Source: the human T2T-CHM13v2.0 reference genome, Homo sapiens
NCBI RefSeq assembly: GCF_009914755.1
Contig: NC_060939.1
DNA: 64,000 bases
Direction: 5' to 3' (one strand)
Positions 2,793 to 58,304 of the stretch are shown in pieces. The notes beneath the pieces were generated by a model. The model was not told the origin of the DNA, made no database searches, and saw only the letters and a program-made list of their open reading frames with translations. The stretch's first letter is position 1. Each line of letters begins with the position of its first letter. The translations under genes were made by a program, and so were the position numbers.

Positions 2793-3265
<473 letters not shown>

Positions 3266-4006
3266 CTACCTGGACCACAGTGATGGGGCTGCAGAAAGAG
3301 GCCATGCTTGGTTGGTTGGCTACTCCCACCTGGGATGGGGGGGTGAGGAGACTGATGTGAGAGTGTGGGCACATTTAGATATTATTCATGGAGGCTGTGG
3401 GGCTGCTGAATGGTGGAAAGTGGCCAGTGGTAGAGGCACCAGCAGTGGTATTCTGGCTGGACAGTATCTGGACATGCATGACTTTAATCTCTGCCCTTTG
3501 CTGGTCAGCCTCCCTGGCCTTCCTATCGATTCTATGAGCTCCCCGGTGTCCTCCTAGTAGATTATTTCTGGCTTAAGTTAGCCATGGTCACTTTCTATTG
3601 TTGGCAACCAAGAACCCTGATGCAGGATGGTCAGCTGGGGTCAGATGATGAGAGACTTTAATGTTGGCATGAGGAGGATGGCAGACAATGGGGAGCCATG
3701 GGAGGTGCATGAGTGAAGCAGAGCCTTGATCCACAGATCCAGGAAGAGTCACTGTAGAATGAAATGGGGAGGAACAAGACTGTGGGGGGTGGCGGGCAAG
3801 CTGAACCAGGGCAGTCACAGTGACAAAGGAGGAAATGACACTGAGATAAGGGGCTCAGGATTGACAGGATTTTGCAATGGGCTGGATGTGGCAGGACAGC
3901 AGGGAGAACTTTTTACAGAGAATATACATCATGGCGTGTTTCCTCTCTGGTCTTCTGAATAACCGGCTCATCTGTTTTAACTATGGATTTGGGGGAGGTT
4001 ATTGGC

Positions 4007-52036: not shown

Positions 52037-55265
<3,229 letters not shown>

Positions 55266-55278
<13 letters not shown>

Positions 55279-55599
55279 CTTGCAGTGTCTTGCAGTATTG
55301 TGAAACCAGCAACTTGTTCACAATTCTTCTGAATTTCTTGGGAAATTTGAAGTGGAGTACCTGTACCAACATGAAATGACACGAATTTAAGTGACGCTCA
55401 ACAACGAAAAGCAAAAAGAACCAAAGAGGAAGCAACTGAAACAACATCTGGATGTATTTAAAAATATACAATGCCTCCAAAATCAGGTGTCATTAATGAA
55501 AATTCTGAAGAAATGCCACCGGACATAGCCAACGCACCTACGCTGTTGTTATTCATTTCCTGCTTTTCACAGAAAACAATTTTGTTGCATGGAAGATCG
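55266..55599 (+). ncRNA. DRAIC: DRAIC exon 4 (alternative internal acceptor at 55572/55573)
   Basis: Acceptor cgttgtcctgtag|; donor TCG|GTGAGT; second strong acceptor ttcatttcctgcttttcacag|. Confidence 0.7.
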
Positions 55600-55974
55600 G
55601 TGAGTTAAAAAAAGACCTGCCCTGGGTGTCAAGCACAGTAGTTACACCGCTGGTTCTGCTCCCTCTGCTTGGGATACATGGGCAGGGTGCCCTGGTGGTA
55701 GGGCCTTGGTCACCAGCAAAGTCAGTTCCCATGGGATCCTCTTTCTGAGCTGATGCCCACTCCCCTGAAGAAGGGGCTTCTATTCAGGCCTCTTGTTGCA
55801 AGGAGCAGAAACCCACTTAGGCTGGCTCAAGTCCGCTGTGTTCCGCTGTTCAGCATCCTGTTTCACAGATGTGTCCCAGCCTCTCTTGGGGTATGACACG
55901 AGGCTGGCAGGGGAGACCCAGGGAATGTCACCAGTCCTTGGGGTTGCCTCAGCTCAAAACAGTCCTTCCTTTTA

Positions 55975-55977
<3 letters not shown>

Positions 55978-56005
<28 letters not shown>

Positions 56006-56285
56006 GAGATTGGGTCTTGCTCTGTTGCTCAGGCTGGAGTGCAGTGATGTGATTTCGGCTCACTGCAGCCTCCACCTCCTAGGCTCAAGCAATCCTCCCA
56101 CCTCAGACTCCTGAGTAGCTGGGACTACAGGCACGTGCCACCATGCCTAAGTTTTAAATTTTTTTTGTAGAGACAGGATTTCGCCATGTTGCCTAGGCTG
56201 GTCTCAAACTCCTGAGCTCAAGTGATCCACCTGACTCAGTCTCCCAAGGTGCTGGGATTATGGGCGTGAGCCACCCTGCCCGGCC
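55978..56285 (-). mobile_element. AluJ
   Basis: Antisense Alu with long T tail. Confidence 0.88.
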
Positions 56286-56665
56286 TCCTTCCTTCCACTT
56301 TTAGGTAGCTGTGTTCAGAGTGCTTCATCCAGCAGAGGCAAACAGGTACAAAATTTCTTCCAAGGCCCTGTGGGAAATTTTTATTAATTCAGTTGACAAA
56401 TATGTGTTAAGTGCCTTCTTTAAGGACAGACAATGTCAGACCTGACTCAGAGGCTGTCTTCCTTGGGGAGCTATGGCAAACATGAGCATGACCAGAATTC
56501 AAGGAAGGGCAGGACGGGGGCTCTAAGAGAGAGGGAGGTGAGTTGTTATGGGCATGTGAAGAAGGGTGAGAGAACTTCGCCCCAGGGGTCTCCAGGAAGG
56601 GCTGGGGGCCTTTGTAGAAACTGAGATGTGCCAGGAGAGAACATCTTCTAAAGAATGGCATGCTT

Positions 56666-58304
<1,639 letters not shown>

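What the first reader, a model, noticed from the sequence alone, without database searches (positions are those of the whole stretch)
55319..55354. 36-nt stem-loop in exon 4, apparently exapted from a DNA transposon
Seen: CACAATTCTTCTGAATTTCTTGGGAAATTTGAAGTG folds as CUUC(U)GAAUUUC/GAAAUUUGAAG (11 bp including one G-U, one bulge, 4-nt loop) with CA/UG ends. Recalled: a 36-base DRAIC hairpin was reported to bind the IKK complex and inhibit NF-kB; size and position fit, but I cannot verify identity. Inference: it lies inside an Arthur1-like hAT fossil, so the functional motif may be transposon-derived and related copies could exist in other transcripts.
Basis: partly seen in the sequence, partly recalled or inferred. 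Interest (0 to 1): 0.7.

Follow-up and report, generated by a model that had tools for sequence, protein, structure and literature searches.

The report
Transposon fossil built DRAIC's IKK hairpin
The flagged stem-loop is an ordinary neighbour, not the published NF-kB-blocking hairpin of the human RNA DRAIC, but the real hairpin just upstream and its whole exon lie in a broken hAT DNA transposon, and the splice site that switches the hairpin on was likely the transposon's own.

Summary
The 11-bp stem at 55326-55352 is real but weak: z -1.2, and 41 of 773 GC-matched 36-mers fold as well. It is not the published 36-base IKKalpha-binding hairpin. That RNA (A+B, PMC12205651 Table S1) is an engineered fusion of window 55270-55287 and 55306-55323 and shares only 5 nt with the finding.

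The transposon idea holds, and covers the real A+B. Exon 4a/4 lies inside a non-autonomous hAT element of the DUF4371/ZMYM1-like type (about 53.8-55.65 kb). Window 55390-55545 is the fossil N-terminus of its transposase (E 3e-8), so both hairpins sit in the former 5' UTR. The exon 4a acceptor is kept in 6 of 8 dispersed copies and is likely the transposon's own; the rival acceptor that removes A looks derived. The A:B helix does not form in the copies tested or in their majority sequence, so it likely arose at DRAIC through about seven substitutions. The subfamily name Arthur1 is unverified. Verdict: a new member of a known kind (transposon-derived lncRNA domain), moderate interest.

The parts
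55326..55352 (+). A weak AU-rich hairpin in the fossil transposase 5' UTR; not the published A+B
55270..55287 (+). Region A of the published IKKalpha-binding A+B (paper nts 705-722), inside alternative exon 4a
   Evidence: PMC12205651 Table S1 matched to the window
55288..55305 (+). Region C (dispensable in the paper); spans the exon 4a/4 boundary
55306..55323 (+). Region B of the published A+B (paper nts 741-758)
55266..55295 (+). DRAIC exon 4a (30 nt). Its acceptor (pyrimidine tract, AG 55264-55265) is shared with dispersed copies and is likely the transposon's own
   Evidence: junction probes in Table S2; YAG|G in 6 of 8 copies; best of 36 YAG sites in the majority sequence
55296..55599 (+). 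DRAIC exon 4, wholly inside the fossil. Its acceptor AG (55294-55295) is likely derived; its donor lies in the element's right arm and is not shared by the copies aligned
   Evidence: annotation given with the finding
55371..55545 (+). Fossil 5' end of the hAT transposase ORF: ATG at 55371, an early stop, a frameshift, then residues 7-59 in one frame (55390-55545) with one stop
   Evidence: 43% over 53 aa to P0141; N-terminal profile E 3.3e-8, best of 2130 tiles
53801..53940 (+). Left arm of the hAT fossil, part 1; holds the 3' end of exon 3 and its donor (53876/53877)
   Evidence: leave-out nhmmer E 1.5e-11
53941..54575 (-). Alu plus L1 3' end inserted into the fossil's left arm at one site (family names from sequence likeness, recalled)
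   Evidence: masked stretches in the annotation; three copies of a target-site motif; the arm aligns across the excised site; SRP-like matches
54573..55265 (+). Left arm, part 2, with a candidate 5'-UTR intron of the transposon (donor-like GTAAGT at 54980 to the AG at 55265)
   Evidence: nhmmer 54573-55062 E 1e-87. The donor assignment is inferred and not unique
55544..55652 (+). Right arm of the element, ending in the right terminal inverted repeat (55641-55652)
   Evidence: nhmmer E 1e-18; 8 of 12 matches to the family's left-end majority

Best explanation
The flagged stem-loop is likely an incidental AU-rich hairpin, while the published IKKalpha-binding A+B lies just upstream, and both sit in the former 5' UTR of a broken hAT transposase gene whose own splice acceptor DRAIC likely reuses as the start of exon 4a.

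Steps. (1) Shown: an old, internally deleted hAT element spans about 53.8-55.65 kb and holds the exon 3 donor, exon 4a and all of exon 4. (2) Shown: exon 4 carries the fossil transposase N-terminus from 55371. (3) Inferred: the pyrimidine tract and AG 105 nt before that ATG was the acceptor of the transposon's 5'-UTR intron, so splicing there brings in region A. (4) Inferred: about seven substitutions after insertion moved the fold from two local hairpins to the long A:B helix, and one A-to-G change made the downstream acceptor that drops A. (5) Published, not tested here: A+B binds the IKKalpha coiled coil at 1-7 nM, weakens NEMO binding and lowers NF-kB output.
For: Identity: Table S1 maps A+B to 55270-55287 and 55306-55323; the A+B deletion is inactive.
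Repeat: 40 other matches in the genome for 54576-55660. Profiles built without the DRAIC copy find it at E 1.5e-11, 1e-87, 7e-70 and 1e-18 across the four parts.
hAT: left and right end majorities agree at 11 of 12. An 8-bp flank duplication peaks at 14 of 24 against 0.21 for cross pairs. A profile from four fossil copies retrieves 15 proteins, 2 of which carry Pfam Dimer_Tnp_hAT, one also DUF4371 below its cut-off. Their full-length relatives match exon 4 itself.
Acceptor: YAG|G in 6 of 8 copies, the two exceptions being one local duplicate pair; 12 of 12 pyrimidines, first of 36 YAG sites.
Fold: the majority sequence gives the DRAIC pairs a probability of about 0, and 5 of the 7 DRAIC-specific changes create or strengthen pairs.
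Against: Only 3 of 12 copies had both ends good enough for the flank test, so the permutation P is 1 of 6. The DRAIC copy's left terminus was not found: best candidate 53604, with left-end alignment reached by 277 of 1000 shuffles. No single fossil fragment hit a hAT Pfam family (0 of 21 and 0 of 12). The native-intron reading rests on motif conservation only, with no transposase mRNA seen, and the donor is one of two GTRAGT in 735 nt. The ancestral base at 55295 is weakly supported (A 3, gap 2, T 1, G 1 of 7). The ABC helix is not unusually stable (z -0.9), and 160 of 5000 random 7-substitution variants reach it, so selection is not shown. The IKK function comes from one laboratory's overexpression and in vitro work. 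A CRISPR exon screen finds DRAIC fitness-promoting through a MIR in its 'exon 5' of another exon model.
Confidence: 0.78

Rival explanations
1. The reader's stem-loop is the published 36-base IKK-binding hairpin.
For: Similar size as delimited, and adjacent. With NR_026979.1 numbering (no exon 4a), nts 741-758 would fall on its 3' arm.
Against: The published sequence and the 705-950 forward primer start at 55270. The overlap is 5 nt. A+B is a fusion of two separated pieces.
Confidence: 0.01
2. The reader's stem is a second, auxiliary element, for example the unmapped NEMO-binding site or an enhancer of IKKalpha binding next to A+B.
For: The paper says NEMO binds 701-905 outside A+B, and once saw stronger enrichment for 705-777, not reproduced. 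It mentions three well-determined structures (figure not seen). Seven of 8 copies keep 8-10 of the 11 pairs.
Against: Weak fold. No covariation above control (59 and 186 of 500 shuffles for the two helices together). The majority version folds at only -2.2 kcal/mol. 705-777 cuts the stem's 3' arm.
Confidence: 0.12
3. The A+B structure was preformed in the transposon, so other copies, if transcribed, would also bind IKKalpha.
For: The majority sequence can form 11 of 14 A+B pairs; the chr17 copy keeps 11 of 14 pairs and 30 of 36 bases.
Against: None of 5 copies folded gives the ABC helix as MFE. Fused A+B of 8 copies folds at -1.7 to -7.4 against -8.7 kcal/mol. No covariation. Expression of the copies is unknown.
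Confidence: 0.07
4. The exon 4a acceptor is a cryptic site that merely happens to be in the transposon, not its functional intron acceptor.
For: AT-rich transposon arms hold many pyrimidine tracts. Many copies end near this tract, which may simply be a deletion hotspot. No mRNA evidence.
Against: It is the strongest acceptor-like site in about 1.2 kb of majority sequence, in sense orientation, 105 nt before the transposase ATG, with a GTAAGT about 285 nt upstream.
Confidence: 0.25

Closest known systems
DRAIC A+B hairpin (Hao et al. 2025, PMC12205651; read parts 1-6 of 9 and both supplements, figures not seen)
   Same: Same exon and locus; A+B maps to 55270-55287 plus 55306-55323.
   Different: The finding's stem is the next hairpin downstream. 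The paper has 0 occurrences of 'transpos', 'conserv', 'evolution' or 'primate', so its main text does not give the origin.
RIDL, repeat insertion domain of lncRNA (Johnson and Guigo 2014, PMC4114693; passages seen)
   Same: An exonic transposon fragment acts as a protein-binding domain; transposon-derived splice sites in lncRNAs are described; XIST repeat F may come from a DNA transposon.
   Different: Here the domain is mapped to 36 nt of a transposase 5' UTR, and an acceptor likely native to the element sets its inclusion. The fold appears to have arisen after insertion rather than being preformed.
Arthur1/MER69, hAT-Tip100 (PMC5753468 and PMC9409130, passages)
   Same: Old non-autonomous hAT with CAG...CTG ends and a DUF4371 plus Dimer_Tnp_hAT type transposase. 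The end sequences look like Arthur1 from recall only.
   Different: No Dfam or Repbase consensus was available. A link through mir-326 (listed as Arthur1B) was inconclusive.
ZMYM1-like hAT transposases of amphibians (P0141 Geotrypetes seraphini, P0137 Pelobates fuscus)
   Same: N-terminus 40-43% identical to the exon 4 frame; C-terminus matches longer human copies.
   Different: The DRAIC copy keeps only about 59 codons, with stops and a frameshift; it cannot encode a transposase.
MIR RIDL in DRAIC 'exon 5' (bioRxiv 10.64898/2026.06.17.732811; passages; supplements not seen)
   Same: A transposon-derived functional element reported in the same lncRNA.
   Different: A SINE, in a 10-exon model, with a fitness-promoting effect; 0 occurrences of Arthur, hAT or hairpin in its main text.

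Membership tests
Published DRAIC A+B hairpin (for 55319-55354) | Sequence equals nts 705-722 plus 741-758 | tested here: not met
   the finding is nts 754-789, 5-nt overlap
Published DRAIC A+B hairpin (for 55319-55354) | One strand lies in exon 4a | tested here: not met
   exon 4a is 55266-55295; the stem lies wholly in exon 4
Published DRAIC A+B hairpin (for 55319-55354) | Sufficient to bind IKKalpha | not testable with these tools
   The published A+B deletion construct would retain the stem and is inactive
hAT DNA transposon | Short terminal inverted repeats | tested here: met
   family majorities agree at 11 of 12; DRAIC right end 8 of 12; DRAIC left end not found
hAT DNA transposon | 8-bp target-site duplication | tested here: inconclusive
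   peak at 8 bp, 14 of 24 against 0.21, but only 3 of 12 copies usable, P 1 of 6
hAT DNA transposon | Homology to a transposase with the hAT dimerisation domain | tested here: met
hAT DNA transposon | Dispersed, diverged copies | tested here: met
   median 76% identity to the majority in 29 copies
Arthur1 (MER69) subfamily | Best match to the Dfam/Repbase Arthur1 consensus | not testable with these tools
   no repeat library held; name recalled
Arthur1 (MER69) subfamily | Homology to a locus listed as Arthur1B (mir-326) | tested here: inconclusive
   no profile match; the best alignment of the left end falls on the precursor, but 87 of 500 shuffles score as well
RIDL (for A+B) | Exonic and transposon-derived | tested here: met
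RIDL (for A+B) | Needed for the RNA's function | not testable with these tools
   reported in PMC12205651 by deletion and sufficiency tests
RIDL (for A+B) | Signs of selection on sequence or structure | tested here: inconclusive
   no orthologues available; 160 of 5000 random variants reach the fold; no covariation among copies

The most novel reading that the evidence does not exclude
The 5' UTR of this hAT transposase mRNA already carried an IKKalpha-binding sequence. DRAIC then captured a ready-made, splice-gated NF-kB damper, and other transcribed copies, such as the chr17 copy with 30 of 36 A+B bases and an intact acceptor, form a dispersed family of IKK-binding RNAs.
Probability: 0.06. 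Interest if true: 0.8.

Novelty: new member of a known kind. Interest (0 to 1): 0.42.

Why it matters
It corrects a misidentification and gives an origin for one of the few lncRNA motifs mapped to 36 nt with a reported nanomolar protein partner. The paper leaves open whether sequence or structure drives binding. The dispersed copies and the family majority are natural controls: 16-30 of 36 bases shared, without the A:B fold. It also suggests how the splice switch arose, with an inherited acceptor that includes A and a later one that removes it. The hAT annotation itself is probably already in RepeatMasker tracks (not checked). I did not find the link to A+B in print (searches, judged mostly from listings; subscription papers and preprint supplements not covered).

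Tried and rejected
Pfam on single decayed fragments: no hAT hit in 21 and 12 translations. tblastn of one fragment against plasmids: none. PDB search with a poor fragment alignment: 3 chance hits. Human ZMYM1 and a second human hAT-domain exon as references: majority sequence 21.9 bits against a shuffled maximum of 23.9, not significant; the homologue search from ZMYM1 listed only its orthologues among the best 120. tblastn with default settings missed the N-terminal match; it needed word size 2 without composition correction, or the profile. One genome search was swamped by an Alu in the query. Naming the subfamily through mir-326 was inconclusive. The left terminus of the DRAIC copy was not established. 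A conserved RNA structure across copies was rejected for both helices. Rfam gave nothing over the exon. chr8b was dropped from majority counts as an 89% local duplicate of chr8a. Only 8 copies covering the hairpin region were aligned; this is a lower bound on the family.

Full report
Observation. The 36 bases are at 55319-55354. Only 55326-55352 pairs, and the terminal CA/UG does not. The fold is ordinary. The z-score is -1.24, with 20 of 200 shuffles as stable, and 41 of 773 GC-matched 36-mers in the window fold as well. It is missing from the MFE of exon 4 and of nts 705-950, and has pair probabilities of 0.21-0.36 in spliced contexts.

Identity with the published hairpin. I read parts 1-6 of 9 and both supplements of PMC12205651; figures are not held. 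The 36-base A+B is a fusion of nts 705-722 and 741-758. Table S1 places A at window 55270-55287 and B at 55306-55323, and Table S2 places exon 4a at 55266-55295. The natural structure is a 54-nt ABC helix, which RNAfold also gives at -12.6 kcal/mol. The identification is therefore wrong.

The repeat. Searching the genome with 54576-55660 gave 40 other matches, and further searches added copies of the inner part. With the Alu and L1 cut out, the left arm aligns continuously. Profiles built without the DRAIC copy find it at 53801-53952 (E 1.5e-11), 54573-55062 (1e-87), 55105-55544 (7e-70) and 55539-55679 (1e-18). The DRAIC copy is 77% identical to the majority, like the median copy at 76% (29 copies), so the insertion is old.

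It is a hAT. Left and right end majorities are inverted repeats agreeing at 11 of 12, and DRAIC's right end is 55641-55652. Flank duplication peaks at 8 bp (14 of 24 against 0.21), but on 3 of 12 copies only (P 1 of 6). DRAIC's left terminus was not found. Single fragments gave no hAT Pfam hit. A profile from four fossil fragments retrieved 15 proteins from 1.8 billion: 2 carry Dimer_Tnp_hAT at the matched end, 12 are short ORFs without a hAT family, and 1 is unrelated. Full-length relatives are ZMYM1-like transposases with DUF4371. Their N-termini match DRAIC exon 4: 43% over 53 aa to P0141 at 55390-55545. A profile of 38 N-termini ranks this tile first of 2130 at E 3.3e-8; the next tile scores 0.09. 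The ATG at 55371 is followed by an early stop and a frameshift. Both hairpins thus lie in the old 5' UTR. The name Arthur1 is recalled. The papers confirm only that Arthur1/MER69 is a hAT and Arthur1B is hAT-Tip100 (passages), and a check through mir-326 was inconclusive.

Splice sites. The exon 4a acceptor is a pyrimidine tract plus YAG|G in 6 of 8 aligned copies; the two exceptions are one local duplicate pair. In the majority sequence it is the best of 36 YAG sites in about 1190 nt, with 12 of 12 pyrimidines against 9 for the next. It lies 105 nt before the ATG, and a GTAAGT lies about 285 nt upstream at 54980 (exact in 9 of 29 copies; one of two such motifs in 735 nt). I infer a native 5'-UTR intron, without mRNA evidence. 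The exon 4 acceptor depends on G55295, where 7 copies show A 3, gap 2, T 1, G 1, so it is probably derived. The exon 3 donor and the exon 4 donor also lie in the fossil and differ from the copies.

Origin of the fold. The majority of 7 copies differs from DRAIC at 7 of 54 ABC positions and can form 11 of 14 A+B pairs. It prefers two local hairpins (-13.8 against -2.5 kcal/mol), and the DRAIC pairs have a probability near 0. Five of the seven changes create or strengthen pairs, but this is partly circular, because the structure was taken from DRAIC. Seven random substitutions reach an equally stable A:B helix in 160 of 5000 trials. None of 5 copies folded gives ABC as MFE, and covariation does not exceed control (59 and 186 of 500).

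Mechanism. Most likely (0.78), DRAIC splices into the transposon's old acceptor and so includes A. A pairs with B in a helix that formed after insertion, and, by the published work, binds the IKKalpha coiled coil and weakens NEMO binding. The function rests on one laboratory's overexpression and in vitro data. A 2026 preprint finds DRAIC fitness-promoting through a MIR in another exon model (passages; supplements not seen).

Novelty. Transposon-derived lncRNA domains and splice sites are a known kind (PMC4114693, passages). The A+B paper does not mention transposons or conservation, and nine literature searches showed no paper making this link (mostly listings). The repeat itself is probably in RepeatMasker tracks, which I could not check. 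Verdict: new member of a known kind, interest 0.42.

Noticed in passing
window 53938-54588: An Alu and an L1 3' end lie side by side in the same orientation at one site, with three copies of a target-site motif (53938, 54242, 54571), so the second element likely inserted at the first one's duplication.
   Followed up: partly
window 55031-56367 (minus strand): The predicted lncRNA LOC124903517 is antisense to all of exon 4a/4, including both acceptors and A+B; it could mask the hairpin or shift splicing.
   Followed up: no
window 56717-57365: 41-bp and longer direct repeats (families D3, D4, D6, D8) around the start of LOC124903517; they look like an LTR12-type long terminal repeat (name recalled) that may drive the antisense transcript.
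   Followed up: no
G000:C17:58997659-58998179 (L034): Closest dispersed copy to A+B: 30 of 36 bases, 11 of 14 pairs, intact acceptor. Expression unknown.
   Followed up: partly
query positions 1-225: Many copies end at about the acceptor's pyrimidine tract, and two (L038, L039) join there to the right arm, suggesting a common deletion breakpoint of a shorter subfamily.
   Followed up: partly
L035:1207-1506 and 3190-3500 (chr8): An 89% identical inverted local duplicate of the inner part of the element; both copies lost the acceptor AG.
   Followed up: partly
window 53896-53920: A short GAT-rich expansion inside the left arm, absent from the copies.
   Followed up: no
NR_026979.1 numbering: The RefSeq transcript lacks exon 4a, so the paper's coordinates are offset by 30 nt and point to the wrong bases if read on it.
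   Followed up: yes
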